IMG/VR virus record: IMGVR_UViG_3300035517_000383
Location: 88,103 to 152,102 of that record
Reading direction: 5' to 3' (one strand)
DNA: 64,000 bases
DNA from: a virus
Lineage: Duplodnaviria; Caudoviricetes
The notes under the pieces were generated by a model that was not told the DNA's origin, did not search any database, and saw only the letters and a list, made by a program, of their open reading frames with translations. Below are positions 3 through 61,017 of the stretch, one piece after another (positions within the stretch are counted from its first letter, which is position 1; each line of letters begins with the position of its first letter). A program made the position numbers and the translations under genes.

Positions 3-1997
3 GGAAAAGAAAAGACCTTAAGAGAAATTTACGAGGAAGCAATTGGAGTCTATAATATCGAAAGAGATAGTGAAAAAATGTGGAAAATGCTTCACGAGCA
101 TAAGGTTCAAGCATTATTTCAAATGGAACAGCAGAGTGGAATAAAAGGTATCGAATTAACAAAACCAACTACAGTTGAGGAATTAGCGGCTATCAATTCG
201 GTAATGAGACTTATGCCGCCAGAGAAAGGAGCAGAACAACCACTTGATACTTTCGCAAAGAGAAAGAAAGATTCTACAATTTGGGAAAAAGAAATGATTA
301 GTTATGGACTTAATAACCATGAAAGACAATGGTTACATAGTTGGCTTGATACAAGTTATGGAATTTGTGAAACACAGGAAACTATGATGAGTATGTTACA
401 GGATAAGGAAATTGGTGGACATTCATTACTTTTTGCAGATAGAGTTCGTAAAGCTGTGGCAAAGAAAAAGCCAAAGGAATTCCTTGAATGTCAGGCCGAA
501 TATTATCAAACAGCAAAAGAACAAGGATTAAGTGAAAAACTCACTCATTATTGTTGGGATGTTATTTTTAGTAGTAGTAGAGGATATTCATTCTGTATGG
601 CTCATACACTTGCTTATTCAATTGTTGGTCTACAAGAACTAAATCTTGCATATAAATACCCTATTATTTTTTGGAATACAGCTAATTTGATAGTGGATTC
701 TGGCTCAATGAATTTATCTCAAGAATTTAATTTTGACGAAGATAATGAGGATGAAAAAATTGAAAATTCTTCTGCTGATTATGGACGTATTGCTGCGGCG
801 ATAGGTAAAATGAAAAGTAGTGGTATTAAATTTACCCTTCCTGATATTAATGAATCTGATATTACCTATTCACCAAATGTAGAAAAAGATATGATTATTT
901 GTGGGCTTCGTGGTCTTACGAGAATTGGTAATCAACTTATTTATGATATTATCAAAAATAGACCTTATACTTCAGTTGAAGATTTTTTGAACAAGGTTAA
1001 AGTCAATAAAGTTCAAATGATTTCTCTTATTAAATCTGGTGCATTTGACTCTCTTTATAATGGTAATAGAAAAGAAGCAATGCAAATATATCTTGAACTT
1101 ATTGCAGACAAAAAGAAAAGAATCACTCTCCAGAATATGCAAATGCTTATTAACAAGAATATGATTCCAGAAGAGCTAAATTTTGAAAAAAAACTTTTTA
1201 ACTTTAATAAGTATTTGAAACAATTTAAAGAAGGAAATTATTATAGACTTGATAAGATTGCGATGAAGTTTTTTATTGAAAATTATGACGAAAATATTCT
1301 TGAAAATGTTGAAATTAATAATGAAGAAATGACTGCATTAATTAAACAAAGTATTTGGGATAATACCTATAAGAAAGGAATGGATGCAGTAAGAACATGG
1401 ATGAAAGCGAATCATAATATAATTCTAGATGCTCTTAACCAGTCATTACTTGATGATGTTGCTGAAAAATATACAGAGGGTAGTATTTCTAAATGGGAAA
1501 TGGATAGTCTTAATTTTTATTATCATGAACATGAACTTGCTTCTCTTAAAAATATAGCTTATGGTATTGTTGAATATACAAATTTACCAGATGAGCCAAT
1601 AATTGATAGAGAATTTACAACGAAAGATGGACATGAAGTTGTTATTTATGAAATTAATAGAATTGCAGGAACTGTTATTGATAAAGATAAAAATAAAGGT
1701 ATTGTAACTTTATTGACAACCTCTGGCGTTGTTACAGTTAAAGTTTGGAAATCACAGTTCTCTATATGGGATAAACAAATTTCAGCAAAGGATACAGATG
1801 GAACAAAACACGTTTTGGAAAAGTCTTGGTTTTCGAGAGGTACAAAATTAATTATCACTGGGATAAAAAGGGACGATACATTCATTCCTAAAAAATACAA
1901 AAATACAGAATGGCCGCTCTTTGAGAAAATTGAAGAAATTGATGAGAATGGATATATAACCAAATCATCAACAGAAAGAATTGAAATTGAAGAGTAA
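3..1997 (+). CDS. dnaE: DNA polymerase III alpha subunit (C-terminal part, 5' truncated by window edge)
   Basis: Frame is open from nt 3. DnaE motifs: YGICETQE, ADRVRKAVAKKK, GYSFCMAH..AY, LPDINES, GLRGL..IG, LIKSGAFD, C-terminal OB fold. No in-frame TAG in about 660 codons. Confidence 0.9.
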   Translation, partial: GKEKTLREIYEEAIGVYNIERDSEKMWKMLHEHKVQALFQMEQQSGIKGIELTKPTTVEELAAINSVMRLMPPEKGAEQPLDTFAKRKKDSTIWEKEMISYGLNNHERQWLHSWLDTSYGICETQETMMSMLQDKEIGGHSLLFADRVRKAVAKKKPKEFLECQAEYYQTAKEQGLSEKLTHYCWDVIFSSSRGYSFCMAHTLAYSIVGLQELNLAYKYPIIFWNTANLIVDSGSMNLSQEFNFDEDNEDEKIENSSADYGRIAAAIGKMKSSGIKFTLPDINESDITYSPNVEKDMIICGLRGLTRIGNQLIYDIIKNRPYTSVEDFLNKVKVNKVQMISLIKSGAFDSLYNGNRKEAMQIYLELIADKKKRITLQNMQMLINKNMIPEELNFEKKLFNFNKYLKQFKEGNYYRLDKIAMKFFIENYDENILENVEINNEEMTALIKQSIWDNTYKKGMDAVRTWMKANHNIILDALNQSLLDDVAEKYTEGSISKWEMDSLNFYYHEHELASLKNIAYGIVEYTNLPDEPIIDREFTTKDGHEVVIYEINRIAGTVIDKDKNKGIVTLLTTSGVVTVKVWKSQFSIWDKQISAKDTDGTKHVLEKSWFSRGTKLIITGIKRDDTFIPKKYKNTEWPLFEKIEEIDENGYITKSSTERIEIEE

Positions 1998-2010
1998 AGG
2001 GAGGAATTAA

Positions 2011-2928
2011 ATGGCTTCAATAGGAATAGTAGATTTAGACCTTTGGTCTAATATTAAATCATTTCCCAATTTAGAATTAATGAAAGTTTATAATTATTAT
2101 TATAATAAAAACAATATAGTTAGAATGGTGCGGCCAACTGACCCATTAACAACTTTTACTCATATTTACTTTTTTAAAGAAAATCCTAATACATCAATTT
2201 CAAAAAAAATTAATATGAGAATGGATAATAAAACTCTATATGGATATGGTTTCTATAAGAAATTTTTTCCTTTAAAAAATGAAATAAGCGAGGTGCCGCC
2301 GAGGTATCTCCCTTATGATTCTTTTGTGGAACGATTAGCTAATACAAAATCTTATGATACAATGAAACAGAGTTCCTATATAAGAGTGGAAAATAAGGAT
2401 TTTACAGACTATAAACCTGATAGAACAAATATTTATATTGCGGATTATGATTTTATTCATTTACAAGAATCTTTAGATTTTCTTTAGGAATATAAAAAGC
2501 ATAATTTTAAATTCACTCATGGGTTAAAAATTGATAACGAAATCCTTTATAATCAATTTATTAGATATAGTAATCTATTTGATAGAAGATTATATATTAC
2601 TTTTAATTACTCTAAGGACTTTTTATTAGAAAATTATTATGAGAATATAGTGCTAAACATTAACAAGCCCCTAAATGAAATAATACAAATTATTTTATTC
2701 TTAAAAAGTAAAGAAAATAGTAAGGCTATTCTAGAAAAAGTAAGTAATATTAATCAATTATAGGATTATGTCATTAAATGGGGTTATGCCGCGGCAAGAG
2801 AATCTTACTATGAATATTATAAGAAAAACAGGAACGCAATAAATCTTGCTGAAAAAAGTGACAGTAATATACGTCTACTTTTAAAGACAAAACCTAAAAA
2901 CTATAAATCCTCAAATATTGACTTTTAA
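2011..2928 (+). CDS. hypothetical protein, 305 aa reading through 2 TAG; N-terminus resembles the IGLxDxD..FPNLxLMK radical-SAM-associated family
   Basis: GGAGG RBS. Frame stays open past TAG at 2485 and 2761 to TAA 2926-2928. No Cys seen in the translation. Confidence 0.65.
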
Positions 2929-2946
2929 GATAAATTATGGTATAAT
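2918..2946 (+). promoter_or_regulatory. sigmaA/sigma70-type promoter with extended -10
   Basis: TTGACT-17 nt-TATAAT with TG at -15/-14, upstream of GAGGAGG RBS. Confidence 0.85.
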
Positions 2947-2977
2947 TATAATACAAAATAAAGAGGAGGGGAAGATA

Positions 2978-5825: not shown

Positions 5826-6219
5826 TATCTACTTTTGCAGTTGTAGTAGTTATTGGTAATGCTGCGGCCGCACCGCACATGGAACAATTTGATGTCCCCA
5901 GCATTTTAAAAACTCCAGACTAAATATTAGTATGAACTCTTACAGAATATCTTGTACGGCTATGAATTTGGCAAGCTTTCACATTCGTACAATCATTATT
6001 TACTAATGGATATGCTGTAGTACCAGTTCCTATTGTAATAACTGCATTTGCGGCGATAGTTGTAGTTAATGGAATTGACTACCCAACAACTATACAGTAT
6101 TTTTCATTATTCCCATAACTACCAGCTGGAATATTAATAATCAATTGACCATTGGAATAAGTAACACTTTGCGAAATAATTAAATGCTCACAAAGGCATT
6201 TAGTAGCTGAGCAACTCAT
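5794..6219 (-). CDS. Cys-rich beta-strand protein (cassette gene 4), 141 aa, 2 TAG
   Basis: MSCSATKCLCEHLIISQSV...GSYGNNEKYCIVVG*SIP...YPLVNNDC...RTRYSV. TAG at 6079 and 5920; ends TGA. Absent from the ORF track. Confidence 0.75.
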
Positions 6220-6229
6220 AAAGCATCAC

Positions 6230-7397
6230 TTAGCAGCAGCCGCAAGAATTTCCATTTGTAGGGAATACTCCGCCAAGGGGAATTGATTGATACGGTGAGG
6301 TTACTAGGTATGAAGGCTAAGGTGTGGGTTGAAGAGCATTTATAATATTACTTGTTTGTGAAAGTTGTGACAACTGGAAATTAGCGGACTGTAATTGAGT
6401 TCTTAAATTATCCATTTCAGACTGAACCATATGATTAATAATTCTATCTGTATTAGCATCTGCATTAGTCTTTAATTCACAAGCGGCCTGTGCAATAGCA
6501 TAATTAAGTTTTTCTTGTCCGTTCTGAACGCCGCAGAATCCAGACTGCATTTGAGATTGAATATTATTGAATGCGCTCTGATTATTGAAATTAGACTGCA
6601 TAATTGACTCTCTTGTCTCGCAGCAACAATCTTTCATGTTGTAGTTTGTATTAGCAATCGCACTTTGAATGTTGTCAAAACCGCAATTTAGTGACTGCTG
6701 AATTCCATTGACTCCAGAATTTACTGCGTTCTGTAATGCGAAATTATTTTGCATTGCATTAATTTCACTATTATAAGAATTTGCTTGTATCTGCGAACCA
6801 ATATTAGCAAGTTCTCCACTCATAGCATAGAAGCCTTGACATAAACCATTTTGTGCACCTCTAATGCTATTATTAAGACTATTGAAATTAAAGGCATCTG
6901 TCATGCCTTGCTGAGTTGCTGGTGTGCAACAAGCATTATATCCATTATTTTCATTGTTAGGAATTATTACTGTATTTGGACCACCGTTTCCACCACGATT
7001 TCCGTTCCATCCTCCTACTGCAAAGAAAAGAATTAATATAATCACCCCAATATGTTATCATATAAGCTTTTTATCTTATATTTCTATTACTTTCTATTCG
7101 TAATAGTTCAGCATAACTTTTCAACTATTTTTAATTAAATAGTGCCGCGGCCTCGTGGAAACATTATATCTTTTCAGTTTCTATGCGTTGCCCCTGACTT
7201 AACTTTGTTAAGTCTTCGGTTCGGATTAGCATTTCAGCCTTCCCGTTTAATTCCGCGGTTATTCAATATAAGTTACCTTATAAGGTGGCAGGAGTCTACC
7301 ATGCGCCACTGGCACCGCCAAAAGTATCATTACTATTCTGTCCATTTTTGTTTTGCAATGCCAAAGCATCTGCTACTGTTAAACCATTTTCTCCCAT
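6230..7397 (-). CDS. Asn/Gln/Cys-rich protein with one TM helix (cassette gene 3); exons 7298-7397 and 6230-7047
   Basis: GGAGG RBS, ATG 7397. Splicing gives ...FGGASGAW/WVIILILFF. CCC motif. Reads through TAG 6317 to end CGCC-TAA. Confidence 0.8.
7048..7297 (-). mobile_element. ORF-less group I intron (250 nt)
   Basis: 5' exon ends in U, intron ends in G. P1 UGGU/GCCA; P7 GCAUA/UAUGC. Removal restores the frame. Confidence 0.8.
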
Positions 7398-10624: not shown

Positions 10625-10635
10625 TTTATCACCTC

Positions 10636-16600: not shown

Positions 16601-16611
16601 TTAATTGCCAT
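10636..16611 (-). CDS. large tail-tip/baseplate hub (Tal-like) protein, about 1990 aa, many TAG
   Basis: Seven ORF-track fragments share one frame separated by TAG. Position after Dit. PKVSYSI..VDL and I.DTTYIED..F motifs. Only spot-checked for TAA/TGA. Confidence 0.7.
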
Positions 16612-16623
16612 TCTTTTCACCTC

Positions 16624-19107: not shown

Positions 19108-19121
19108 TATCTCACCCCATA

Positions 19122-19163
19122 TTAAGGAGAGAGTTCCAATTAAGGAACTCTCTTTTTATTTTT
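19122..19163 (-). terminator. hairpin after tape measure gene
   Basis: GAGAGTTCC-AATTAA-GGAACTCTC inverted repeat. Confidence 0.5.
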
Positions 19164-28100: not shown

Positions 28101-31100
28101 ATTTAGTTTCTTATTATATAAATACCAATTATACCTTCCTTTTATTACTTGGCTGCTGATTATCTTGTTGTAGTATAATTATACGATACCATAAGACTTC
28201 CCAGCAATTAAGGAGATTTCAAATATATTTCACAATATATTAGGGTTAATGATTAGCCGTACCAATGTTTTCCTTTTTATTCAGATGGTTCGTTATTCCA
28301 TCCCGTTTATTAAACTGCTATAGGCTTTCCCTATAGAATAGACTATATCTTCTTCCTTTTCTCTAAAAGGAAGTATAATACTTCGGTATCACTTGATACC
28401 TATCAGAGCCAATCCTGATAGTCGTTGGACGTTTTACTTAGAATTCTAAGCAACTTCGCTGCGAGTTATCCAATCTCTTACTTTTTTACTTTACCAAGCT
28501 GATTAGACTTGCCGCCGCCCTATCACTAAGGCGGTTTAGTAGTAAAAGCTCTAAGGATTTTCTCGTCAATTCATTATATTCTACTATAATAATTGCTTAT
28601 TATAGACCCCGACTTAAAAATAAGTTATTGAATATTTTTTCTTCATAGTCGTCTTTTGTTTCCTTCTAATTGATTGTCTTAAAATTCGTGCGTCTATTTC
28701 TGGATATAATTTTGTTAAGTTATTTATTTCATCATAATTAAAATATAATTTAATATTTTCATTTGATAACATATATTGAGTTTGTCTTTCTTTCTCGAAT
28801 TTGTCATCTTTATCTGTGTTAATAATAGGATTTTCGATTATTTTTTCAGCAACAGGACTTTTTCCTTCTCTTTCTGTTGGAAAAAAATGATTATCTGATA
28901 TTAAATCCCACTGCACTTCGATTTCCTTTCCACTTTCAATAAGATAACCGTTAAAAGAGTACTTTTCTATTTTATTAGTAGCCTCTTTATAATGACCATT
29001 TAATTCTGCTTTAACTTCATCTATTTTTATATATTTAGTTTTATATGAAGTTTTGTTTTTATAGTTTAAAATCCAATTTAAGGCATCTGTCGAGATAGGA
29101 TATTCTTCATACCAGAAAATACAATCCTTGTGTGTTACTCTTTGACCAGAAAGAACATTAAAGATACATCCTCTTGAAAAATTATTATCCTTGCAGAATT
29201 GTGTTAAATTATTAAAAACTTTTGTTATATTTTTCTTTAAATCATAGCAAACAATATTTTTTAAATTTACACCTCTTAAATTATTCTCATTATAGTAATT
29301 TGATTGGTCACTGTTTGATGTCGCCAAATTTTTATTATAAAAATGAGGATTTGGAATTTTATAATATTCCAAATAGTATTTTTCAAGCCATGATAATTCA
29401 TTCCCATCCTTAGCGGCGGCCAAATAATGAACAGAAAAATTTTCTCTACCAAATTTTTTGAAAGCTTTTTGCAATTCTACTCCACTACCCTTATAACCAT
29501 GCCAATAGAATAGCTAATTAGAATTTACTTTTCCAATATACATCATTCCATTAATTTCATTTCTTACATAATAAATATAACCATAATCCATTTTATTTTT
29601 GCCTCCTGTAGTTTTAATCTGCGGTTTATCCGCTCACAGGATAAGTAAAAATAGAAAAATCCACATCTAATACTTTGAAACCAAAAACGAATCAAATTCT
29701 TATTTTTATAGACAAGGGGCCTCCTACGTTGTCTCAATCATTTGTGTTAAGAACGCAGAAGTTGTTTCAAAGCTCATACCTGCCGAGTTAGCAATCGCTT
29801 ATAAAAATGTCTATTTTAGACATTTAGACTATATCTTTTTCAAATATCACTTCGGAATATTTATCCCTACTCTCTGTCGAGATAGTCGTTGAGCTTTAGT
29901 TTAAGATAATTATTTAAATTCTTTATTTCCCAATAAGGAACTTCAATTAAAGGTATATTGTTAGCTAGACAATATTCTCTTTTTATAGTATCTCTTCTTT
30001 TCTAATCTTCTATTGTGCCTAAATAAGCATCATTTACCGTATAATAATGTTGTTGTCCTTGAACTTCAATTAAAATTTCTTTTTTATCTTTTGTAAAAAC
30101 ACAAAAATCAAAACTAAAAGATTTTAAATCTTCATATCTTTTTTGAAAAACAAAATCATATCCATTGTTAATTAAAAAATTTCTTACTTTCTATTCTAAT
30201 AGTGACATTTTAGAATAGCATTTTGGACAACCTCTTCCAAGTTCAGAAATCCTTTTAGAAAAAACAAAACCACAATTATGTTTTATTAAAGATTTATTAT
30301 TTGTTCCAGTAAACTATAGTAATTCATATTCATTATTTCCAACTTGATTTAAAAATTCTTGACCCTGTTTAAAATCGAATTTATTATAGACTTTAAAACA
30401 ATTGGGACATATTTTACCATCAAAATTTCCTCGAACTTTTTTTTCAAAAATATGGCCGCATCTTTTACATTTAAATTTAGAATAGTCATTAGTACCTTTC
30501 CATTCTAACAATTCAAGATAACCTTTTTTCAGTTCTTTTTGTATATGATTATAGATTTTGTTTTTATCTTTTTCACAGTTACTACAAAAAAATTCCTTCC
30601 GTCCTATTATTACAGCTTCAATATTATTAATTATTTCAATCTTGCCGCACTTATTGCATTTAATTTTACAGGACTTTCTCAATCCTTGATAGTTTAATAA
30701 AACAAAATCTGAATTTGGAAATAACAATTCTAATCGTTCTTGTAATCTCTCCTTATTCCATCTTGAATATGGTTTATAGCATTTAGAACATAATGTTATT
30801 TTAGTTAATAAATTTCTTGCATTTTTATAATTATAAATTTCACCACATTCTATACATTTATATTTGATAGAAGATTTTTCACCATTAAATTCTAAAATTT
30901 CTATTTTATTTTTATTAAATACTCTTTTTAATGTTTCTACAAAATCATACATATTTTTTCTCCTTTTATCTTAAACTCTTAGCTGCTGATTATTCATTAT
31001 TTAGTACTTAGGTTAGCAATTCCATATACCATACTATTACTTTTTTCTACTTTCGTAACCATTATGGTGTAATAGTCATTAGAATGTTCCAGCAATTCAA

Positions 31101-34604: not shown

Positions 34605-34623
34605 TTTTCTCACCTCCAAAAAT

Positions 34624-34650
34624 AAAAATGAGCGACCTTTGCCGCTCCTT
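34624..34650 (-). terminator. intrinsic terminator
   Basis: GAGCGGC-AAAG-GTCGCTC followed by ATTTTT. Confidence 0.7.
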
Positions 34651-35611: not shown

Positions 35612-35649
35612 ATAAAAAAATAAGACGACCTTGCGGCCGCCTTAAAAAA
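35612..35649 (-). terminator. intrinsic terminator
   Basis: TAAGGCGGCC-GCAA-GGTCGTCTTA followed by a T tract. Confidence 0.75.
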
Positions 35650-39708: not shown

Positions 39709-39724
39709 TTATTTTCGCCTCCTT

Positions 39725-41608: not shown

Positions 41609-41636
41609 CTATATTCACCTCTTTTGTTCTATTAGT

Positions 41637-41680
41637 AAAATTGGCTATTGAACTATTACATTCAATAGCCAACTTTATTT
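41637..41680 (-). terminator. intrinsic terminator after major tail gene
   Basis: TTGGCTATTGAA ... TTCAATAGCCAA inverted repeat with T tract. Confidence 0.7.
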
Positions 41681-41692
41681 ATGTTAACTTAA

Positions 41693-44600
41693 TTAATATT
41701 CAGTTGCTCCGATATAAATTTCTTCATCTTCACTATCAGCACTTACCTTAAAGAGTTCAGCATCATCAAGTAGATTCAAGTTCTCAGTATCCTTAACCAT
41801 TGTAGAACCATCATTCTCTTCCTCATTTTCAACAACATTGTACTGAATGAATCTCATCATTACACCATCATCTGGACGAAGAACAGTACCATTTAAATCA
41901 AACCAATTTTCTTATACAGATTATTAATCTGTTCTCTATATTTCTATAGAAGTTGAGACTATATCTTCACATTTTTCTGTGATTGCCACTTCGAATTTAT
42001 TTAAACTCTACACCGCTACATTCATCACGGTTAGTCGTTGAACCTTAATCTAAATTCTTAGATTCTTGGTTGCTGATTGCCCAATTTTAATAATTTTCAA
42101 ACATTCACGTTTAGAATTACTTCTTACGTTGTAGTTTATTAAACTCTAAGGGTTTTCCAGCAATTAAGCAATTTTTACCGCGGCATTTGATAAAATGTTT
42201 ACCGCGGGGTCTCCATCAGCTTCAAGTGTAATTGTCTGTTCTGAGCCCACCTTGAACTGAGGAATAACAAACTGGAATCTCTCATCCTCACCAGTTTCCT
42301 TAGAACGTACAAATGTATCACCTACAATCTTGTATGTGCCGGGGAACTTATCAGCAGAGATTTCAATCATATGACCAATAGACTGACCTTCATAAGCTAC
42401 AGAACGAGTAAATTTATAGAAAATTTCTCCCTCTGCGATTGGAGTTCCGTCTGCATAAGGCTCCATTGTATTGGGGTCATAGAATACAGCCTGTGCAGTT
42501 TTATCTGCCTCAGTAGGAGTTCCGTTGCTATTGCCAGCAGGAACAATAAAGCTTCTTTTTGCAATAACTTTTTCCATTCTGTCAATTGTCTTAGCTTCCT
42601 TAACACCATTTCTAAAGTCTGCACCCTCGTAACTACCAAACATAGCACTCATTGACGCAGGAGTAAATAGAGCATCTTCAAGACTTACTGTAATTTCCTT
42701 ACCATAATCCCAACCAATAAGATTTGCGTTGCCGCGGCCACCAGTTGCATAAACTTCTTCAGCAGTCTGCTCAATAGTGGAAATCTTTAATGTATCGAGG
42801 AATAATACAGGAATATAATGATTTGTCTTTTTCTTAGTCTTATGAACCTTTAGGTTCTTAACTGTGCAAGTTGCTTCAAAAGTTTCATCATTAACTGTAA
42901 TATCTGTAGTATGAATAAGACCATTTCTTACTAAAGCTTTAGTACGAGAATCTGCAACATAGCCGTTCTCATTAATCATCCATGCAATTCTATCTACGTC
43001 TCTTGAACCATGACGATTTACAACAAAGATAAGACCCTTATTACCAATTACTACGAGAGCAAGCCACTCGGTTTTCTTAAATACCTTATCCTGATAATAG
43101 AGAGTATTACCTTTCTTATCTTCGAATGAGAATACACCATTTTCATCAGAACTTAAACGCTTATAGTTTTTATTATGAAGTAAATAGATATATGCACCTG
43201 CCGCAACATCAATTGCTCCATCTACTCTTACATAAACAGCTCTATTTGATTCGCCGCCGTTATAATTAACTCTAATATCTTGGTCAATAGCCTTTTCATT
43301 ATAAGCAATTTCATTTAATGCATCAAGTACATTATCAAGAGGATAAGTATCAGAAGGAGATGTTACTTCCAATTCTGAACCATTTGCAGTGTACTCATAT
43401 TTTGCATTATAATCAATATCTTCCTTACCATACTTAGGAATCGGATTCTGACTTACATCATTCATGCTATCAGTTACTTTGTAGCCACCGAAAATAGAAT
43501 TAACACCTGCTAATCCATTAGTTTCACTAGCGTCAAGAACTTTCTTCTTCTGTCTTAAAGCGTCAATAGCATCATTAATACTATAATGCTCATCTTTACC
43601 CCACATGGTAACTGTAGCAATTGCCTTATCAACGCCTTTATTTTTCATTGCCCATTTCATATAAGGTTCTTTAATAGTTGCTGTAGTAGCAGGATAATCC
43701 TTAACAAAAGGAACTATAGAACCAGAAGCCTTTACAAAATCGCCGCCGAGGAAATAAGGATTGAAATATCCCATTTCATCTTCTACAACTAACTCTGCAT
43801 AATCTTCATAAACAACATCATAAGCCTTAGCTTGGAATGTCTGAGTTAAATTCTTAATAGTTTCATTAATTTCAGAAATATCATAAGTATTCTCAGTAAA
43901 TTTACCATCTAATCCTACTACAACAATTTTCTCTGTTGAGTTAGGAGCGGCTGCAAAATTATCATTAAAAGTAATTTCACCAAAAATAGAATCTGCACCT
44001 GAGAACTGATAACGTACACCAGTCTTACTAATCAAATTCTGATTTTTAGCAAAAAGCATAAGAACTTGCTGAGCATAAGAATATTCATGAGTACCAACAA
44101 TTCTCTTTTCATCAGGAACAGTAGAATCGTCATTACTATAAACACCTTTTTCAGAATCTTCTTTGTTGGAAGCTGTAATACCTGTTAAAGTAATTTTTAC
44201 AGTATATGTATAAACTCTCTTAGTTGCTGGTTCAGTTTCCTCATCTGTTGCCGCATCTTCATCAACTACATCTTCCCAAGTTTCATCTAAATATTTATAA
44301 TTTGCTGTTGCAGAATCTTTATTAACGGTATAATATTCATCAAGAATTAAACTAGAAATTTCAGTTTTAGTCTTACTATTATATATAATAGGTTCATCTA
44401 AATCGTACTGTTCAATTTCATCTCCAAGCTTACTATCTTCGGGGAAAGTTAATCCCTTTTGATAGTGGTCTGTAATTCTTGTTTCAGTTTTAAAAGTACC
44501 TTCATAAACTTCTGTAAGAGCAATTTCATCATCACAGTCATAATTAGTGCCAGTAATTAAATCTGCATCTGTAAATACATAAGCCTCAAAACCATCTTCT

Positions 44601-44779
44601 GCGCCCATTCCTCTTTCTAAAGGATATACAGTTCTTAACTCAACTGCACCTTTAAGAATTGAGGCAACACTAATGGTTCTCTGAGACTCATAAGTCTCTT
44701 CTTTCTTTTCTATACGATAAAAAGTTACGTCAGCGACTTCCTTAATACCATATTTTTCAAAAAGGTTCTCTGTAGCCAT
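41693..44779 (-). CDS. probable major tail (tube) protein, 929 aa; exons 44779-42201 and 41903-41693
   Basis: NLFEKYGIKEVADV. Spliced GDPAV/FDLNGTVLRPDDGVMM matches paralog GDPTTFTMNLKVLRREDGVMM. No TAG. Confidence 0.75.
41904..42200 (-). mobile_element. ORF-less group I intron (297 nt)
   Basis: P1 CCGCGGU/GCCGCGG, AAUUGCUGGAA, CAACGACUA, AAGAUAUAGUC, terminal G. Confidence 0.85.
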
Positions 44780-52976: not shown

Positions 52977-55900
52977 TCACCTCCCTTTTTTAAAGAAAGT
53001 TAATTTGCGGCCTAAGCCGCGATTGCGACAACGGGACATTTCTTCTTCTTCAATTTTGGCAACTCTATAAGTTCCCATTTCCAAAGCAGAGAATTTATCT
53101 TTGGTCATTCTTTTATTAATTTGTTCTACAGCAATGAGATTATTTGCACCCGCAGGTTTAACCTTTAAGTTCATCATTTCATTGATTAAAATTGTTGTTA
53201 ATTCGTGCGGCATTAGACGTGCAATTCTCTATTCTGGAGACATCTTCTGTCCAACCTTAGTACTTATTAATTTTACTTGTCCTTCTTGTTCTGAAATTAA
53301 GAAATTAAGTTTACCATTATCTATTTTAGCATATAGAATAGAGTGCATCTCACTGTTAATTTGTGAATTAGCTTTTATACCATAGAGAATTTTAATAGCA
53401 TTCTTTGGCTGGATTTCTTCGTATTCATCACGATTGAAAAATCCATAGGCTGGATAAATTTTTCCTGTTTTTACATCATAGGTTTCTTTAATCATACAAT
53501 CAGCAAATCCAATACCTAATCCATTAATATCTATCACAACTTCTCTGGGATTAAATTTCTCAATAAGTTCTTTTAATGCTAACGCCTGTCTATCAAATAA
53601 CTTTTCATCTTCTGTTTTACCTAGTACAAATAAGTTAACCAAATTACAACGATATTCAGCATCTGGGAATACTTTTAAAACCGTAGCAACAGTCTAGCAC
53701 CCCCTTCTAGCTATATCCACACTTATAATGTAGAAACTATTTACATCAGCTCTAACAGATTCCTTCGTTTCGGGATTCATTAAACGTCTATGAAGTTTAA
53801 TTCTCTCGTAATTAAACCAAGCATCGCTTGAACTGCCGACAAACTGACTTAAGTACTCTTTAGCGAAAGATTCTTCACTAAATGTCTGAGAGGTTTTTAT
53901 TTCATTTAAAAAGTTTTTAGGTAATAGACCTACCTACATTGGAACTCTATAATCACAACCAAAAACGAAGCACTTGTTCGGATTGATAATTGAAAGTTCC
54001 ATCATTTCAATTGCTTTGTCATAACAAAATGTATTTTTATCTGACGCTGAACTCATCCATAACTGAATCTGCTGTGGTTCAGAATCGTTTTTTAATCCAT
54101 TTGCCATCTTTCTATCAACATTCATAAGCGGCAAAACGACATTATTAAGTTTATCTGCATCATGGTCCATTAGTACCCTCGGTTTCCCGATATTTATTAA
54201 GGGGATTAGACTATACCATACATTATAAAATGTTCACTATTATAATTAAATATTTAATGGTAAAAAATTGATTTTTTTTCTTTTATATTTTAAATCTAAT
54301 TTATAATACATAGATGGAAAATTATGCCAAATTATAGGAGCAACTATTTCTAAAAATTTTATTGTGTTTTTTGTATTACACCATAAACGAGGATTGTTTT
54401 TATCATAAGTTAAATGAAAATCAAGTCCCCATTTAGATAATAAATACGATTGTAACATTTTTACCTCTTCAAGTGTGAAAGATTGTACGTTTAAATGTAT
54501 TTCTCTTGACTTGTATGTATTGGGGTGATTGGGGTCTTTGTGTAGTCCCAAACATCCATCATCCATATACATAATTGCTAAAGTAATTTCATCAAAACGA
54601 TTTAATATAGTTTTTGTTAATTGCTTTTTCCCATTCATGTAGATATCTTTATATAAATTTTTTAATCTTTCATTATTATAATACGCATATCTATAAAGAT
54701 ATCCTTTATTATCAGTTGATGTTCTTAAAGAAGTTGGAGTTAAATATTTATTAATAAAAGAAACTTTTTCGTCTACATAGTTTAATTGTTTTCCACCATG
54801 ACGAATATATAAATATTTTTCTCCATTCATAGAGCCATCAAACAAAATCATTCCAATTAATGCACTATTTAATTTATGTGCTGTATCAATTTTTACCATT
54901 ATAAAATCCTCCTGTACTAAAAGTAATACGAGTTTTCAAATATTTATTAGTCGTTGAACGTCTCTCCAAATTGGAGATTTCGCTGCGTTTGATTGCCCAA
55001 TCTTTAGTGATTTTACTATACCGACTCCGTTACTAGTCGCCGCATTATTATTGCTAATAATGTTTAGTTACTAAAGCTCTAAGGACTTCCCCGCAATTTA
55101 AGTGATTTTAGACCCGCAAATCATGATGCTCGTCTTACTTTACGGGTCTCGTCTATTAATCCCAAATGTTATCATATAGACTTTTTATCCTATATTTCTT
55201 ATAGTTTCCTATAAGGTCGGCATATCTTTTCAGTCTTTACTGTTGCGGCCTCTTGGAGAGATTATATCTTTTCACTCTCTATGCTCTGCCCCTGACTTAA
55301 TTTTATTAAGCCTTCGGTTCGGATTCCCATATCAATTAGAAGATATTGACTTAGGCTTTCCGCTTAATTCCGCAATTTTTAAACGGCCGATTAATAGATT
55401 TTTCTCGTTTTCCGTTAATTTTTTGTATATTTCTTTTTCTTTTTTTCTTGACCTACCACTAAACCAATCTTTTACTGTTGTTGGCTTAATTCCCAAATAT
55501 TTAGCTACACAAGTGTATCCATATCCGAGTTCCTGTGCGCAAAAAGCAAAATTATAATCATCTTGAGTTAAAGAATAAGCTTTTATACATCCACCCTGTT
55601 TTAATTGACGTTTATCGTAGACTTTCAACAACTCTGTATTATAAAAATTTTCTGCAATTTGTTTTATTTCATCTTTGTTCATCTTATCAAATTTTTCTAA
55701 TTGTTCTATATAACCTAATCTTCTTTTAATTCGACTGGCAGTTCCTTTTGACCAACCAAAAATTTCTTCGCAACTTTTTCCATAGCCACTCCCATAAACA
55801 TCTAATATACATAAGAAAGTAATAATATCTTTTTCTTTTGCTTTTTGATGTAAAGGAGGTTTTCCACCGCCTTCTGCAATATTGAAGCCATCTTCAATAG

Positions 55901-58416
55901 AATTAAATTTTTTGATATACTCACATTCAAGTTTATCTAATTCTTCAAGACTATTTATATTAAATTCCCAAACTCTAAAATGGAACTCTTGCTCTCCATA
56001 TTTATTCCAAGCATTTTGTAATTTAATGTTATCATGAATATTTTGATTTAATTTTCTAATGTGAGTATTTTTTCTACGCTTATAGTCAACTGTTTGTCCT
56101 ATGTAACTTTTTCCGTTTTGTAAACATTGTATCTAATATATATATCCAATCATTTATATCAACCTCCTTGGTTGTCTTCTGCATATAAGTGATTTTTTAT
56201 ATACATATCTTTAAAATTTTCAGAGGTGGAAGAAGTAGAAGTATTAACTTCTATATAATTCTAAACCGTTCCTTCTTCCTCCACGTTGAGAGTTCAAAGC
56301 AGATACAACGTCAAATATAGAACCATTTCGGAAACTTAATCTCGTTTATGTTATGTAAGTTTGTTATACTTACTCTTAATATTTCTATTAAGACCAGACT
56401 ATATCTTCTTCCTTTCGGAAGGATTCTATTTCGAGACTTTTGCCTCTACTCCCTTGTAGGATAGTCGTTGAACTTTCCGCTTAGCGGCTTGGCTGCTGAT
56501 TGTCCATTTAATAAGTTTTAGGATTTAGCCATGACTCATCTATTTTATTTTTTCTACTTTCGTAACTATTTTCTATATCAAGGAAAAATATAGAATGTAG
56601 TTAAAATAGCTTTAGGATGTTCCAGCAATTAAGAATCTTTTATTTTATCATATCATTTCTGATACGTATGTCGTATTAATCTCAACATAATCGTTTCCGA
56701 AGTTTCCGTCTCCAATAATTTCTCTTTTTAGTAGAGGAAATAAATTCCAAATTTCCAGAATTTTTTCCCTAGCAATTTTGGCTGATTCTAAAAATGTTTA
56801 ATTAAGGTCGCTAGCCTTAATCCATATGGCTCATAGTTTCCTATGAGAACAGACTATATCACTATCTTTATAAGATACCTATTGTTAACTTTGCTTTAAA
56901 GTATTTAGTCGTTGAGCCACAAAAATGATAAAATATTTTCAATATCATTGTATTGAATATATTTTATTTCTAATAATGAGTACTTATTTTCTTCACAAAA
57001 TTTCCTTTTTATTTTGTCGTTGTCTTGTTGTTTTTTAAATTTTTCTTCTCCACCAAAATGTTTAATTGGCATAAAATGTTGTTCTCCTTGATATTCAATA
57101 AGTAAATTAAATTGCGGTATATAGAAATCAAAAGATAATAATCCCAATTCTGAAAAATGTTTTTGGGTTTCAAACTCTATATTGTTTTCAGTAAGAATTT
57201 TATTTATTTTAATTTCGCCTTTGGAATTAAATCTTTTACATTTCGGACAAGGAGCTTTTAACAATATATTATGTGGCTTATTGTAAAAGATAAAACCACA
57301 GTCATTGTGTTTGAATAAAGTTTTCTTATTTGTTCCCAAATATTCTCCGACTAGAGTGTATTCATCTTTATATAAATTATAAAGTTGTTGTTCAAAAACT
57401 TCTTTTGTTTTAAATGCTGAGAATGTTTCGCAAAGTGGACATTTTTGTGATTTTAAAAATACTTGTGGTTTTCTTTTAAAAACGCTACCGCATTTTAAAC
57501 ATTTTAATTCTAAGTCATCAGTAATTTTAGTATAACTATTTAATAATTCAATATTTTTATTATTTTTTAATACATAATTAACTTTATTCCCAAGTTCAAT
57601 AGTATCTTTTCTTGGAACGCATTTTTTACAAATCTTTTCTTTTGTAGGATTTAAAAAATTATATGCTCTTTTTAACGTATAAACTTCTCCACATTTATTG
57701 CATTTAATTATTCCTAAATTTAAAGAGCCAGTATATTCTACTACCGTTAAATTTTCATTCGGATATTTCTCTTTTATTCTATTACAAAAATATTCAAATT
57801 TATCTTTTACATAACTCATTATTATTCCTCCTTTTTTTATGGTCGCTGATTATCCATTATGACAAACTTAGGCTTTTACCTTATTTGATTCCAACACTTG
57901 TTTCTGACTTTCATCTCTATTCTATCTTATCGAGGAAAATAAGATAATAGCAGTTGGACTTTAGGACGTTCCAGCTTTAAAATAGGTTATTCAAGCCGTC
58001 TCACGACGACAGGGCGCAATCTTTCGCGCTTTTCCGGGTGCAACAATAAAATATTTTCCATTAGGCTTAAACATACATATTAAGTATAAAGCCAAAATTG
58101 AAATAAAAGACTTACTAAACGCCCTAGGTGCAATAACAAAAAGTCTTGGATACCGCAAAGCAAGTCTTATAAACAATCTCTGATAAAAAAACAATTGAAA
58201 GTGAGAATTTAGCGGTTTAATAAAATCCAAGAACAAATCTGGATATTGAATCCAGAAATTAAAATAAGTCTCATAAAGTTTTCTGTTTTTCTCGATGCGT
58301 CGAGATGTCATTACCGCACCCTTTTCCATCTCAACACCATTTCTATAAATCTTTTTAGCGGTATTAGTAACCACATAGTGAACAGTATTTAGCATTACTT
58401 CTGGCATTTCTATCAT
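52977..58416 (-). CDS. terL: terminase large subunit, 594 aa, 5 exons (58416-58026, 56787-56684, 56342-56265, 55162-55142, 54167-52977)
   Basis: LFFYQR, APRAFSKSF (Walker A), APGKAQ/SAKIA, DYV/RLSFRNG, RGGRRNG/GLIDETR/DHD (Walker B), VDIAR, IDINGLG, KDKFSA. Exon sum 1785 nt. Confidence 0.88.
54168..55141 (-). mobile_element. group I intron TerL-I4 with LAGLIDADG gene
   Basis: AAUUGCGGGG, CAACGACUA and GUAUAGUC flank the ORF; U|...G boundaries. Confidence 0.82.
54246..54899 (-). CDS. LAGLIDADG homing endonuclease
   Basis: ALIGMILFDG and LAIMYMDDG motifs. Confidence 0.85.
   Translation of the reverse strand: MVKIDTAHKLNSALIGMILFDGSMNGEKYLYIRHGGKQLNYVDEKVSFINKYLTPTSLRTSTDNKGYLYRYAYYNNERLKNLYKDIYMNGKKQLTKTILNRFDEITLAIMYMDDGCLGLHKDPNHPNTYKSREIHLNVQSFTLEEVKMLQSYLLSKWGLDFHLTYDKNNPRLWCNTKNTIKFLEIVAPIIWHNFPSMYYKLDLKYKRKKINFLPLNI
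55163..56264 (-). mobile_element. group I intron TerL-I3 with GIY-YIG gene in the P1 loop
   Basis: Exon AACGGU pairs with IGS GCCGUU near 55383-55388; P7 GCAUA/UAUGC. Confidence 0.8.
55332..56153 (-). CDS. GIY-YIG homing endonuclease (273 aa, 1 TAG)
   Basis: MIGYIY*IQCLQNGKSYIGQT..R..H..LQNAWNKYG..FN...GG. Confidence 0.82.
56343..56683 (-). mobile_element. group I intron TerL-I2, ORF-less (341 nt)
   Basis: P1 AUGUU/GACAU, AAUUGCUGGAA, CAACGACUA, AAGAUAUAGUC. Confidence 0.85.
56788..58025 (-). mobile_element. group I intron TerL-I1 with endonuclease gene
   Basis: GCUGGAA, AAUCAGCG, CAACGACUA, GAUAUAGUC; splicing restores KAQSAK. Confidence 0.8.
56905..57819 (-). CDS. Zn-ribbon repeat + Vsr/DUF559-like homing endonuclease (no TAG)
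   Basis: CxxC repeats, SKGE..FDFYIP..LIEYQGEQHF..QQDND; paralog of 29861-30952. Confidence 0.85.
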   Translation of the reverse strand: MSYVKDKFEYFCNRIKEKYPNENLTVVEYTGSLNLGIIKCNKCGEVYTLKRAYNFLNPTKEKICKKCVPRKDTIELGNKVNYVLKNNKNIELLNSYTKITDDLELKCLKCGSVFKRKPQVFLKSQKCPLCETFSAFKTKEVFEQQLYNLYKDEYTLVGEYLGTNKKTLFKHNDCGFIFYNKPHNILLKAPCPKCKRFNSKGEIKINKILTENNIEFETQKHFSELGLLSFDFYIPQFNLLIEYQGEQHFMPIKHFGGEEKFKKQQDNDKIKRKFCEENKYSLLEIKYIQYNDIENILSFLWLND

Positions 58417-58427
58417 ACTACTTCACC

Positions 58428-59378: not shown

Positions 59379-59544
59379 TTATTTATTTCACCTCTTTTTT
59401 TAATTTTGTTGCGCCGCGCCATTTATTTTAATTCTCTAAAATCGACTCGGTGGCACAAGGTAATTTTTAAATAAAGAAGAATAAAATCTTCTACAAAATA
59501 GACAATTCTATTTTTTAAGAACCTAAAACTATTTTAAAAAGTTT

Positions 59545-59805
59545 TTAACGCCCCTCCCCAGAGGTCTATTCTTCTTTTTCTATCCCTTTAATTATATCCT
59601 TGTTCGCCGCCGCAACGTCTTTTGCAAGTTTTAAAAGTTTTTTTCTCTTAAACCTCGACTCCTCTTGAAAACCCATCAAAATCTCAGTAACATAATCCTC
59701 AAAATTATCTTGTTCCTCAATTCCAAGTATATTTCCAAAAGCAAGTATATCAACAAAGTTAAGCTTAGAAAAATATTCTAAAAGTTGTTTTAGTTGTTTT
59801 TCCAT
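59545..59805 (-). CDS. hypothetical protein (86 aa if TAG 59566 is read through)
   Basis: AGGAGGAG RBS. Confidence 0.65.
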
Positions 59806-59820
59806 TATATCTTCTCCTCC

Positions 59821-61017
59821 TTACTTAAATCTTTGTCTTTCTTCCTTATCACATCTCTTACACTTATTTGTAAGCCCATCAGATGATTTTGTCTTTTTAA
59901 CAAAATTTCTAGAATCTCTCAAAAGCTCTCGGCCGCACTTCGTACAAACTTTCCATCCCTTATCATAATCTTTCATCAACCATTCATCATAATTAAGAAT
60001 TGCGGCCTCATTAATAAGTCCTATAGACTTATTAAAAATTGTACTAATATAGTTCTCTGAGTGATAAATCCCTAACTCCCTTTTTAGGTGTTTTGTAATT
60101 TCTCTATTGGGAACTCTTAATTTCTTATCTCTAATAATTAAAAGCTATTGTTTACTTAATTCTGCCTTTTCAATATAAAAGTCTAAAGTCCAAATTAATC
60201 CGTGTAAAGGAGAATCTGGAATTTCCTTAATACTATCTACAATATCCCAATAATTCTAAATTAAACAGTAAATGTGTTCTTTTTCTCTAAAATCAAAGTA
60301 ATATTTTCCTGACTATTTTAATTGTTCTAATTGTTCTTCTGTAAATGCTGTTGCAGTGCGGCCACTGCTCTAACTTCTAGGATTTTTAAATTCCCAATCA
60401 TTTTCCTCTTTCATAACTCCTCTAGGTAACACTAAGTAATTCATCTAAGAATCAACAATACTACCGTGAAATTCTGCCTTGTTCTTTTGTCCAAGAATAG
60501 TCTAGAACTCACTATCCCATAAGTAGTATTGTTGGGTTCTTAGTTCAATTAAGGAATGCTTTAATTGGTAAAGTTCTTTTTGAGAAAGAATTGGAGTAGA
60601 TGAACGTTTCTCTTTTTTCCCTAAGTTCTCATCAATTATATCCTATAAATTCTAAATTTGTTCCCATAATTCTTTCATACCGGGTATGTCTTTTGCTTTT
60701 TCCTTATCAATTGTTGGCTTAACTTTCTTATAAATTGTCTAGTTTTTGGATAATTGTGCTTCATCAAAAGTAGGAGACTCTATCATTTCATCAAGACTTA
60801 TAAATTTTTCTTTATTATAAGAATTATACTTAGTTTTAATCTAAATTTCTCCTCTATCAACAACTGATGTGCCGTCCTCCTAATCTTTACCATATAATAT
60901 ATAATTTGAAACGGTTTCTAATTCAGATTTATTAAGGGTTTCTAAAGGGATTTTTCGAATTGCTTCTAACCTATCTTTAGAAGAATAGATATTAAAATCT
61001 AATATAAATTTTTGCAT
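59821..61017 (-). CDS. putative DNA-binding regulator with HTH-like segment and C-terminal Zn finger (398 aa, many TAG)
   Basis: AGGAG RBS; LETVSNYILYGKD..NREITKHL..HSENYISTI..CTKC..CKRC; absent from the track. Confidence 0.6.

What the first reader, a model, noticed from the sequence alone, without database searches (positions are those of the whole stretch)
186..60363. GCSGC (GCCGC/GCGGC) is strongly enriched in an AT-rich genome
Seen: about 120 copies by manual count, in both orientations and in different reading frames (Val-Pro-Pro, Cys-Gly, Trp-Pro-Leu, Ala-Ala). It also occurs in introns and terminators. None were noticed after about 60.4 kb. At an eyeballed GC content of about 28%, a simple base-composition model predicts fewer than 10. 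Inference: this looks like a HIP1-like dispersed motif. It could be a binding or packaging site for a phage protein, or the footprint of a GCNGC/GCSGC cytosine methyltransferase with biased very-short-patch repair. No gene annotation here explains it, so it is a candidate undescribed system.
Basis: partly seen in the sequence, partly recalled or inferred. Interest (0 to 1): 0.75.

Follow-up and report, generated by a model that had tools for sequence, protein, structure and literature searches.

The report
Phage lineage over-uses the word GCSGC
A 152-kb uncultured gut or rumen phage, and its whole lineage, carries the five-base DNA word GCCGC/GCGGC about 13 times too often; this excess is maintained at the DNA level, is absent from the likely host, and has no known reader.

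Summary
The window holds 124 GCSGC sites where base composition predicts about 11. The whole 152-kb phage holds 315, about 2 per kb.

The excess is specific to this word:
- Every one-base neighbour sits at about 1x.
- It survives a protein-preserving codon shuffle (289 against 68±6).
- It is equally strong in non-coding DNA (27 against 1.7).
- 152 of 204 Ala-Ala dipeptides are spelled GCS-GCN.

Among close strains, synonymous changes that complete the word are 3-8 times commoner than control, and changes that break it are 2-3 times rarer. This holds across positions of the word rather than at one cytosine, so the force is still acting and behaves like selection on the whole word.

All close relatives examined share the excess. 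The one sister-clade genome read in full enriches the overlapping word CCGCA instead, equally on both strands.

The methylase/Vsr reading is not supported. This phage has a C5 methylase, but 17 of 19 relatives have none. No Vsr was found, and GTSGC/GCSAC are not depleted. A co-binned candidate host and its bacterial family lack the excess, and three cultured outgroup phages lack it.

My best guess, weakly held, is a phage "self" recognition word read by a conserved phage protein; a Chi-like role is the main rival. The scan found the same word earlier in a related 179-kb phage.

The parts
186..60362 (.). 124 dispersed GCSGC sites (70 GCCGC, 54 GCGGC on the + strand), about 1.9 per kb, with Poisson-like spacing
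   Evidence: Gap CV is 1.00. Per-gene counts fit a Poisson distribution (chi-square 161 for 160 genes).
5864..5871 (.). Overlapping double site GCGGCCGC (NotI-type). A second copy lies at 35633-35640. There are 8 in the whole genome against about 0.04 expected.
2788..2795 (.). Overlapping double site GCCGCGGC, also at 7144-7151 and 42731-42738
35621..35644 (-). Terminator-like hairpin plus T-run in an intergenic gap. It contains GCGGCCGC.
34630..34647 (-). Terminator-like hairpin plus T-run containing GCGGC
28318..28627 (-). Group I intron carrying two overlapping sites (28511, 28514)
41934..42265 (-). Group I intron carrying one site (42180)
60363..64000 (.). 3.6-kb site-free end of the contig. 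This is within the range of the longest gap expected by chance.
1..1997 (+). Context only: 3' part of the phage DNA polymerase III alpha gene, the end of the replication module. That module also holds the DnaG-type primase, the helicase and gyrase A/B, all upstream of the window.

Best explanation
GCSGC is a recognition word of this phage lineage that is maintained on the DNA duplex itself. It is a viral counterpart of the iterated words of cellular genomes such as HIP and Chi.

Shown:
- A directional force, behaving like weak selection on each of about 300 sites (odds about 20-fold per site), favours changes that complete the word and disfavours changes that break it.
- It acts across positions of the word, in coding and non-coding DNA, and in both orientations.
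- It keeps about 2 sites per kb despite rapid turnover of individual sites.
- The word is about 19 times denser in the co-binned clade phage's DNA than in the candidate host's DNA.

Inferred:
The word would then work as a 'self' mark that directs that activity to phage DNA rather than host DNA.
- The most concrete candidate is the DnaG-type zinc-finger primase of the core replication module. It would start G-initiated, GC-rich primers at GCSGC, or at CCGCA in the sister clade.
- A nuclease-taming or loading signal for the phage's own helicase/RecJ/Sak4 recombination set is equally possible.
For: - Specificity and size of the excess.
- Independence from protein sequence and codon usage.
- Ala codons are GCC/GCG in 75% of cases before GCN, against roughly 4-26% (mostly 10-20%) before other codons. 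152 of 204 Ala-Ala dipeptides carry the word.
- Non-coding DNA shows a 16x excess.
- GCWGC is not depleted outside the Ala-Ala frame, so the excess is not a by-product of avoidance.
- Ongoing bias among 88-99% identical strains: S to W 6.3% against 23.4%, and W to S 20.8% against 3.6%. Losses run at 4-9% against 14.6% at all five positions. Gains run at 11-35% against 4.1% at positions 1, 2, 3 and 5.
- Between G000 and its nearest full relative (75% nucleotide identity), 46% of sites stay GCSGC against 20% for other all-GC pentamers. This includes 14 central C/G flips.
- The excess is lineage-wide: 3-23x over other all-G/C pentamers in 42 close relatives. One sister-clade genome read in full has CCGCA at 442 against 76 expected, equal on both strands.
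- No signal extends beyond the 5 bp.
- Bacterial contigs of the candidate host have 13 sites in 152 kb, against 64 in 39.5 kb of co-binned phage contigs. Both share avoidance of GATC, CCAGG and GAGAC.
- The bacterial family is at about expectation. Cultured outgroup phages lack the excess.
- The primase (CHC2 zinc finger, weak Toprim match), helicase, PolIII alpha, gyrase, RecJ and Sak4 are conserved in all five full genomes.
Against: - No reader was identified, and nothing links any particular protein to the word.
- For the primase idea: spacing is Poisson rather than regular. In the sister clade the asymmetric word shows no bias to one strand relative to gene or replication direction. As far as I know, no primase is known to demand a 5-nt all-GC site or to shape a genome this way.
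- The host assignment rests on one metagenomic bin.
- Singleton differences among strains are mostly losses, about 3:1. That fits weak purifying selection but would also fit slow decay.
- Selection and a word-wide biased repair process cannot be formally separated from sequence alone.
Confidence: 0.35

Rival explanations
1. Chi-like signal for the host's AddAB/RecBCD-type helicase-nuclease. The word, read as GCGGC (or TGCGG in the sister clade), would switch the enzyme from degrading linear phage DNA to recombination, so phages accumulate it in both orientations.
For: - The word is 5 nt and GC-rich, and it contains the GCGG core shared by the reported B. subtilis (AGCGG) and S. aureus (GAAGCGG) Chi sequences.
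- The excess is uniform and orientation-free.
- The word differs between clades, as host Chi sequences differ.
Against: - In the candidate host's bacterial contigs GCSGC is not over-represented. It is among the most depleted pentamers by a Markov model: 13 observed against 19 by composition and 51 by Markov, z -7.4.
- The phages disfavour A before GCGGC (15%), so they do not mimic AGCGG. AGCGG is depleted in the sister clade.
- Cultured outgroup phages do not enrich their presumed hosts' reported Chi: Sophrita 6 against 15.8, PMBT69 0 against 0.5.
- The near-palindromic form is not expected of Chi.
Confidence: 0.17
2. HIP-type footprint of a cytosine methylase. A GCSGC or GCNGC methylase, from phage or host, together with methylation-biased mismatch repair or very-short-patch repair, ratchets near-miss sequences into the word. 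This is the model proposed for cyanobacterial HIPs, including GCsGC in Cyanothece PCC 7822.
For: - GCsGC is a documented HIP associated with GCsGC methylases, and HIPs occur at 1000-2000 per Mb (PMC4390886). The density here is 2071 per Mb.
- This phage carries a C5 methylase and a second methylase-like gene next to it.
- A word-wide repair bias would, like selection, act at all positions.
Against: - Only 2 of 19 relatives have PF00145. None of the five full genomes has PF01555, and PF02086 is present in 2 of 5. G003, without a C5 methylase, still has 330 sites.
- No Vsr, MutH or MutS was found.
- The one-off T-containing words are not depleted.
- A host-encoded system should imprint the host too, and the candidate host and its family lack the excess.
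- The methylase's specificity could not be determined. Its best solved relative is M.HhaI (GCGC), and its homologues carry no informative names.
Confidence: 0.12
3. Site for a host factor other than AddAB. Examples are a decoy or titration site for a defence nuclease, or a site whose occupation or modification by a host protein shields phage DNA.
For: - The phage is under heavy restriction pressure: GATC 0 against about 716 expected, CCAGG 2 against 54, and GGCGCC and CTCGAG at 0. Interaction with host DNA-targeting systems clearly shapes its sequence.
- Two cultured outgroup phages avoid GCSGC, at 0/9.5 and 1/8. The word is therefore a real target of enzymes in Firmicutes.
Against: - There is no candidate factor.
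- The excess is conserved across relatives whose restriction-avoidance spectra, and so presumably hosts, differ.
- More sites would raise the risk from any cognate nuclease.
Confidence: 0.1
4. No DNA-level function. The excess would be a by-product of amino-acid or dipeptide content, codon-pair preference, avoidance of GCWGC, or the host's oligonucleotide signature.
For: More than half of the coding sites (152 of 289) lie in Ala-Ala dipeptides. GCWGC is below the shuffle expectation overall, 77 against 171.
Against: - The protein-preserving shuffle gives z about 35.
- There is an 8-11x excess in the two frames that cannot be Ala-Ala, in both orientations.
- GCWGC is normal in those frames.
- Non-coding DNA shows a 16x excess.
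- The candidate host and its bacterial family lack the excess.
Confidence: 0.02

Closest known systems
Highly iterated palindromes (HIPs) of cyanobacteria, especially the alternative HIP GCsGC of Cyanothece PCC 7822 (Elhai 2015, PMC4390886)
   Same: The word is the same (GCSGC). It is 100% G+C, hugely over-represented, and dispersed through coding and non-coding DNA at 1000-2000 per Mb (2071 per Mb here). Its function is unknown.
   Different: HIPs are described in cellular genomes, and each is accompanied by a cognate methylase. Here the carrier is a phage lineage, most members lack any recognisable methylase, and the candidate host lacks the word. A sister clade uses a non-palindromic variant, CCGCA.
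Chi sites of RecBCD/AddAB (E. coli GCTGGTGG; B. subtilis AGCGG; S. aureus GAAGCGG) and their enrichment in phage P1
   Same: A short GC-rich word, over-represented and dispersed, with a shared GCGG core. There is precedent for a phage carrying more copies than its host.
   Different: Chi is asymmetric, over-represented and replication-oriented in the host chromosome. Here the candidate host is poor in the word, and the word is nearly palindromic and orientation-free.
Dcm/Vsr very-short-patch repair footprint (CCWGG excess and CTAG deficit in E. coli)
   Same: A pentamer with a degenerate centre that a C5 methylase could recognise. This phage encodes a C5 methylase.
   Different: No Vsr was found, and the T-containing precursors are not depleted. 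The bias acts on several positions, and the effect size (13x) is far above my recollection of the E. coli case (under 2x).
Pentanucleotide primase recognition sites of T7-like phages (5'-GGGTC, TGGTC, GTGTC; from my own knowledge)
   Same: A five-base template word read by a zinc-finger primase encoded by the phage. The word here ends in C, so a primer would start with G.
   Different: No genome-wide enrichment of primase sites is known. No lagging-strand bias or regular spacing is seen here. The link to the primase is purely inferential.
DNA uptake sequences (DUS/USS) of Neisseria and Haemophilus
   Same: Self-marking words kept at about 1 per kb by a sequence-biased process, at far higher density than in foreign DNA.
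   Different: Those words are 9-12 nt long, belong to competent bacteria and act through an uptake receptor. No such process is known for phages.

Membership tests
HIP (highly iterated palindrome) sequences | Short GC-rich (near-)palindromic word, the most over-represented of its length, at about 1000-2000 per Mb | tested here: met
   GCSGC is the top pentamer at 12.9x, with 2071 sites per Mb. Definition taken from PMC4390886.
HIP (highly iterated palindrome) sequences | A methylase able to methylate the word is present in every genome that has the excess | tested here: not met
   PF00145 is present in only 2 of 19 relatives. PF01555 is in 0 of 5 and PF02086 in 2 of 5. The specificity of this phage's own methylase is unknown.
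HIP (highly iterated palindrome) sequences | A property of a cellular (cyanobacterial) chromosome | tested here: not met
   The carrier is a viral record with portal, tape measure, terminase and TAG recoding. The candidate host lacks the excess.
Chi sites | Over-represented in the host chromosome | tested here: not met
   Candidate host bacterial contigs have 13 sites against 19 by composition and 51 by Markov model. The host assignment is tentative.
Chi sites | Recognised by, and changes the activity of, RecBCD/AddAB | not testable with these tools
   This needs biochemistry with the host enzyme.
Chi sites | Asymmetric word with orientation-dependent action | tested here: inconclusive
   The word and its complement are equally enriched once G/C skew is allowed for. 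The sister-clade word CCGCA occurs 237 and 205 times on the two strands. This is compatible with protection from both ends, but it is not evidence for it.
Methylase + very-short-patch repair footprint | Vsr-type T:G mismatch endonuclease | tested here: not met
   PF03852 gave no match at E<=0.1. The intron ORF that another note called 'Vsr-like' shows only a sub-threshold DUF2726 match.
Methylase + very-short-patch repair footprint | Deficit of the deamination products (GTSGC/GCSAC) | tested here: not met
   GTCGC is at 0.78x and GCCAC at 1.41x of composition.
Methylase + very-short-patch repair footprint | Bias confined to the methylated cytosine position | tested here: not met
   Among close strains, gains are raised at positions 1, 2, 3 and 5, and losses are lowered at all five.
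Primase recognition sites | Phage-encoded primase with a zinc-binding domain | tested here: met
   G000:81773-82831 matches phrog_47 (DNA primase), has a CHC2-like motif and a weak Toprim match. It is conserved in 5 of 5 genomes.
Primase recognition sites | Enrichment on the lagging-strand template, or spacing on the scale of Okazaki fragments | tested here: inconclusive
   There is about 1 site per kb per strand, but spacing is Poisson and there is no strand bias.
Restriction-avoidance by-product | The excess is explained by avoidance of the alternative spelling GCWGC | tested here: not met
   GCWGC is at 1.0-1.9x of the shuffle in frames 1 and 2.

The most novel reading that the evidence does not exclude
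The word is a sequence-encoded 'self' label of a phage lineage. A core phage enzyme (a primase, a helicase-nuclease regulator or similar) would read GCSGC, or CCGCA in the sister clade. Replication, recombination or protection would then be directed to phage DNA, where the word is about 20 times denser than in the host chromosome. Word and reader would co-evolve across the lineage. This would be a phage counterpart of Chi or DUS-type self-recognition, achieved without base modification.
Probability: 0.25. Interest if true: 0.85.

Novelty: new variant of a known kind. Interest (0 to 1): 0.62.

Why it matters
Iterated words such as Chi, uptake sequences and HIPs are among the few cases in which a genome-wide sequence statistic points to a specific molecular machine. 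All well-known examples are cellular.

Here a whole clade of large, mostly TAG-recoded gut/rumen phages maintains a 5-bp word against strong AT mutation pressure. It recodes three quarters of its Ala-Ala dipeptides to do so, while its likely host does not. That implies an undescribed sequence-reading activity important for phage DNA.

The finding also offers:
- a simple in-silico marker for this lineage;
- a route to separating phage from host contigs in AT-rich bins;
- if methylation proves irrelevant, a challenge to the methylase-centred model of HIP-like words.

Tried and rejected
1. Codon or dipeptide artefact: rejected by the synonymous and codon-order shuffles and by the non-coding excess.
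2. By-product of GCWGC avoidance: rejected. GCWGC is low only in the Ala-Ala frame.
3. Longer hidden motif or extended footprint: there is no information beyond about ±3 bp. The flanks show only 'not A' before the word and 'not T' after it.
4. Paired sites forming hairpins, or regular spacing: spacing is Poisson. A few terminators carry the word.
5. Strand bias: the sense-strand excess of GCGGC matches the G>C skew, and per-frame enrichments are equal.
6. Phage methylase as cause: the methylase is sporadic among relatives. Its specificity could not be inferred from PDB relatives or homologue names.
7. Vsr, MutH and MutS: absent.
8. Host search with the endolysin: found nothing. NrdD led to a Clostridia metagenome bin that contains clade phage contigs.
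9. Chi of known Firmicutes: not enriched in this phage or in cultured outgroup phages.
10. Megablast against the phage collection: no match.
11. Purifying selection at about 1% divergence: too few events. Comparison of whole words at 5-10% divergence was uninformative until restricted to synonymous positions.
12. Thirty-four genes are shared by all five full genomes.


Full report
**What the window is.** The window is bases 88103-152102 of a 152,102-bp IMG/VR virus record estimated 92% complete. GC content is 30.3%.
- TAG is read as a sense codon. Treating TAG as sense raises coverage by ORFs of at least 100 aa from 70% to 89%. It also yields ORFs of 1994 and 1932 aa with 26 and 28 in-frame TAGs.
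- The window encodes a portal, tape measure, Dit, endolysin, a terminase split by homing-endonuclease ORFs, and a sigma-like protein.
- Three group I introns reach Rfam's threshold.
- The rest of the genome encodes NrdD/NrdG, gyrase B and A, a DnaB-like helicase, a DnaG-type primase, RecJ, DNA polymerase III alpha, a ligase, a Sak4-like annealase and others.
- The nearest named relative is phage phAss-1 ('Caudoviricetes code 15 clade'), at about 30% portal identity. Its authors predict a Clostridia host (PMC10607447).

**The observation.** The window has 70 GCCGC and 54 GCGGC, 124 in all, from 186 to 60358. Base composition predicts about 10.8.
- Genome-wide there are 315 sites against 24.5 expected, spread evenly at about 8 per 4 kb.
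- The excess belongs to this word alone. Each of the 15 single-substitution neighbours lies between 0.78x and 1.96x. The other all-G/C pentamers have a median of 30, and those that are higher overlap the word.
- GCCGC is the top pentamer, and CGGC/CCGC are the top tetramers, under a maximal-order Markov model.
- The same analysis shows classical restriction avoidance: GATC 0 against about 716, CCAGG 2 against 54, CCGG 70 against 231, and GGCGCC and CTCGAG at 0.

**It is not a coding artefact.**
- With genes called under TAG=Q (160 genes, 88.6% coding), 289 sites lie in CDS, in all three frames and both orientations.
- Shuffling synonymous codons within each gene keeps every protein and each gene's codon usage. 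It gives 68.2±6.4 sites (z about 35). This test is conservative, because 44% of all GCG codons and 34% of all GGC codons sit inside the word.
- By class, the enrichment over the shuffle is 7-11x in frames 1 and 2 for both GCCGC and GCGGC. It is about 3x in frame 0, where the shuffle is limited by codon supply.
- Of 204 Ala-Ala dipeptides, 152 are spelled GCS-GCN. The first Ala codon is GCC or GCG in 75% of cases before GCN, against roughly 4-26% (mostly 10-20%) before other codons.
- GCWGC is low only in that frame, where it is the mirror image of the excess. It is at 1.0-1.9x in the other frames, so the excess is not a side effect of avoiding GCWGC.
- Non-coding DNA (17.3 kb, 27.5% GC) has 27 sites against 1.7 expected.

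**Anatomy of the sites.**
- Spacing is Poisson-like, with a CV of 1.00. Per-gene counts fit a Poisson distribution, and position within genes is flat.
- There are 29 overlapping pairs (GCSGCSGC), including 8 NotI sites.
- GCGGC outnumbers GCCGC on the sense strand, as expected from the G>C skew of that strand. Per-class enrichments are equal, so the word has no intrinsic orientation.
- The flanks show only a dislike of A before the word and of T after it. No information extends beyond about 3 bp.

**The force is acting now, and on the whole word.**
- Against the nearest full genome (G012, about 75% nucleotide identity over 71 kb), 72 of 156 aligned sites (46%) are still GCSGC. Other all-G/C pentamers are retained at 20%. 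Fourteen of the retained sites have the central base pair flipped, and only 7 have it changed to A/T.
- I then compared sets of loci that are 88-99% identical, using only synonymous third positions with conserved context:

| Ala codon | Next bases | Change | Rate |
|---|---|---|---|
| GCS | GC (completes the word) | S to W | 6.3% |
| GCS | other | S to W | 23.4% |
| GCW | GC (would complete the word) | W to S | 20.8% |
| GCW | other | W to S | 3.6% |

- The product of the two ratios is about 21. That matches the roughly 20-fold equilibrium odds seen in codon choice.
- Broken down by position in the word, losses are 4-9% at all five positions against a 14.6% control. Gains are 11%, 35%, 22% and 18% at positions 1, 2, 3 and 5 against a 4.1% control. 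Position 4 had 0 of 24.
- A repair process tied to one methylated cytosine would not give this pattern. Selection on the whole word would, and so would a word-wide bias.
- Singleton differences are mostly losses, about 3:1, by ordinary GC-to-AT changes at every position. That is what weak purifying selection under AT pressure predicts.

**The excess is a lineage trait with a drifting word.**
- A portal search found 78 related loci.
- On the portal tree, all 42 members of the close clade carry 1.0-4.0 GCSGC per kb. That is 3-23x over other all-G/C pentamers, and it holds whether or not they recode TAG. The excess is strongest in this phage's own subclade.
- Full genomes:

| Genome | Clade | GCSGC sites | Other |
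|---|---|---|---|
| G012 | close | 370 | |
| G003 | close | 330 | |
| G001 | close | 207 | preference for GCGGCC |
| G017 | sister (about 32% portal identity) | 181 (131 of them GCCGCA) | CCGCA/TGCGG 442 against 76 expected |

- In G017, CCGCA occurs 237 times on one strand and 205 on the other, all along the genome and regardless of gene direction.
- Among the 20-kb sister-clade loci the picture is mixed. CCGCA tops L077, L081 and L079, while L073 still favours GCCGC.
- The shared core is CCGC. This phage adds a strict 5' G and a 48% preference for 3' A, and GCCGCA satisfies both variants.

**The methylase and repair hypothesis.**
- This phage has a C5 methylase (G000:57795-58763, PF00145, E about 1e-54) beside a second methylase-like ORF. 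Its best solved relative is M.HhaI, and no homologue carries an informative name, so its specificity is unknown.
- Only 2 of 19 related records have PF00145. No N4/N6 methylase is shared by the five full genomes. G003, with no C5 methylase, has as many sites as this phage.
- No Vsr, MutH or MutS was found.
- The intron ORF that another note called Vsr-like shows only a sub-threshold DUF2726 match, and it sits in an intron-rich stretch as a homing-endonuclease candidate.
- GTSGC/GCSAC are not depleted.

**The host.**
- NrdD led to a 1.4-Mb 'uncultured Clostridia' metagenome bin (G019). It holds contigs of a clade member (73% portal identity, 68% NrdD identity) and bona fide bacterial contigs carrying GroEL, PFOR, UvrA, UvrB, tRNA synthetases and GidA.
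- Bacterial and phage contigs share avoidance of GATC, CCAGG and GAGAC, which supports the pairing.
- GCSGC is 13 in 152 kb of bacterial DNA. Composition predicts 19 and a Markov model 51, and the word is among the most depleted pentamers there. The phage contigs have 64 in 39.5 kb.
- Twenty genomes of the same bacterial family total 177 against 105 expected.
- Three cultured outgroup phages lack the excess. Enterococcus EF1 has 18 against 7.7. Lactococcus PMBT69 (0 against 9.5) and Bacillus Sophrita (1 against 8) avoid the word.
- The 'host shows the same bias' refutation therefore fails, with the caveat that the host link rests on one bin.

**What it most likely is.** The data require a reader of a 5-bp word that is indifferent to orientation, acts everywhere on the phage genome, is conserved through the lineage with slowly shifting specificity, and does not shape the host.
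- I favour a phage-encoded reader, with the word acting as a 'self' mark. The conserved zinc-finger primase is the most concrete candidate: there is about one site per kb per strand, and the word ends in C so that a primer would start with G. Poisson spacing, the absence of strand bias and the lack of precedent keep this at low confidence.
- A Chi-like role for the host's AddAB is attractive because of the GCGG core shared with reported Firmicute Chi sequences and the precedent of P1. It is weakened by the word-poor candidate host and by outgroup phages that do not enrich known Chi.
- A HIP-type methylase mechanism (PMC4390886) shares the word and the density, but not the methylase requirement.

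**Novelty.** Library searches for the word in phages found nothing relevant. The closest described case is the cyanobacterial HIP GCsGC. This scan had already reported the same word in a related 179-kb phage (note e1-5823854). The present work agrees with that note and adds the per-position substitution test, the CCGCA sister variant and the outgroup comparison.

Noticed in passing
window 8636-24960 and most late genes: TAG is read as a sense codon, presumably Gln. ORFs of 1994, 1932, 827 and 662 aa carry 26, 28, 13 and 12 in-frame TAGs, while early and replication genes carry few or none.
   Followed up: partly
whole genome; window throughout: Extreme restriction-site avoidance: GATC 0 against about 716 expected, CCAGG 2 against 54, CCGG 70 against 231, GGCGCC and CTCGAG 0, and CTGAAG, CTGCAG and GATATC low. 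Relatives differ in which sites they avoid (for example CCWGG is 0-1 in G003, and GCGC and CTAG are nearly absent in G012).
   Followed up: partly
window 52977-57819 (minus strand): The terminase large-subunit region is interrupted by three homing-endonuclease ORFs: LAGLIDADG at 54246-54899, GIY-YIG at 55332-56153 and HNH at 56905-57819. The major virion-protein family phrog_2729 is spread over three large ORFs (37456-44779), with a group I intron at 41934-42265.
   Followed up: no
G000:12165-13601 (minus), upstream of the window; L107:12165-13601: The phage encodes a BrxL-like protein (BREX Lon-like ATPase plus N domain, E 1e-97) that appears to lack the protease part. It could be an anti-BREX decoy or a DNA clamp.
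   Followed up: no
G000:69950-74498 (L110:9950-14498): The phage encodes its own gyrase B and gyrase A, with the C-terminal beta-propeller. It also has PolIII alpha, a DnaB-like helicase, RecJ, NrdD/NrdG, ThyX, two RNA ligases with a kinase-like protein, and a UvrD helicase carrying a LAGLIDADG intein (G000:36897-39068).
   Followed up: partly
G000:75147-75437 (L110:15147-15437, protein P0001): A 96-aa acidic protein in the replication module is conserved in all five full genomes (46-75% identity). It has only a sub-threshold match to the LexA winged-helix DNA-binding domain and is an unexamined candidate sequence reader.
   Followed up: no
G017 (loci L133-L141) and loci L077, L079, L081: Sister-clade phages enrich the non-palindromic word CCGCA/TGCGG (442 against 76 expected in 178 kb), equally on both strands. 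L079 prefers TTCCGCA.
   Followed up: partly
L172 (Lactococcus phage PMBT69) and L173 (Bacillus phage Sophrita): These cultured large siphoviruses avoid GCSGC (0 against 9.5 and 1 against 8 in 30 kb) and GATC (0). This suggests that GCNGC-type restriction is common among their hosts, the opposite of the clade studied here.
   Followed up: no
G019 bacterial contigs (L115-L119, L122, L126, L129, L130, L132): The candidate host (small-genome Clostridia, about 29% GC) is itself depleted in GATC (112 against 800), GCNGC, GAGAC and CCAGG. GATC depletion runs through its whole family (234 against 1119 in 20 genomes).
   Followed up: partly
G000:64000-66129 (NrdD), 21571-22950, and 120943-122721 (= window 32841-34619): Three long genes carry 0-1 GCSGC sites where 3-4 are expected. 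This may reflect later acquisition or tighter protein constraint.
   Followed up: no
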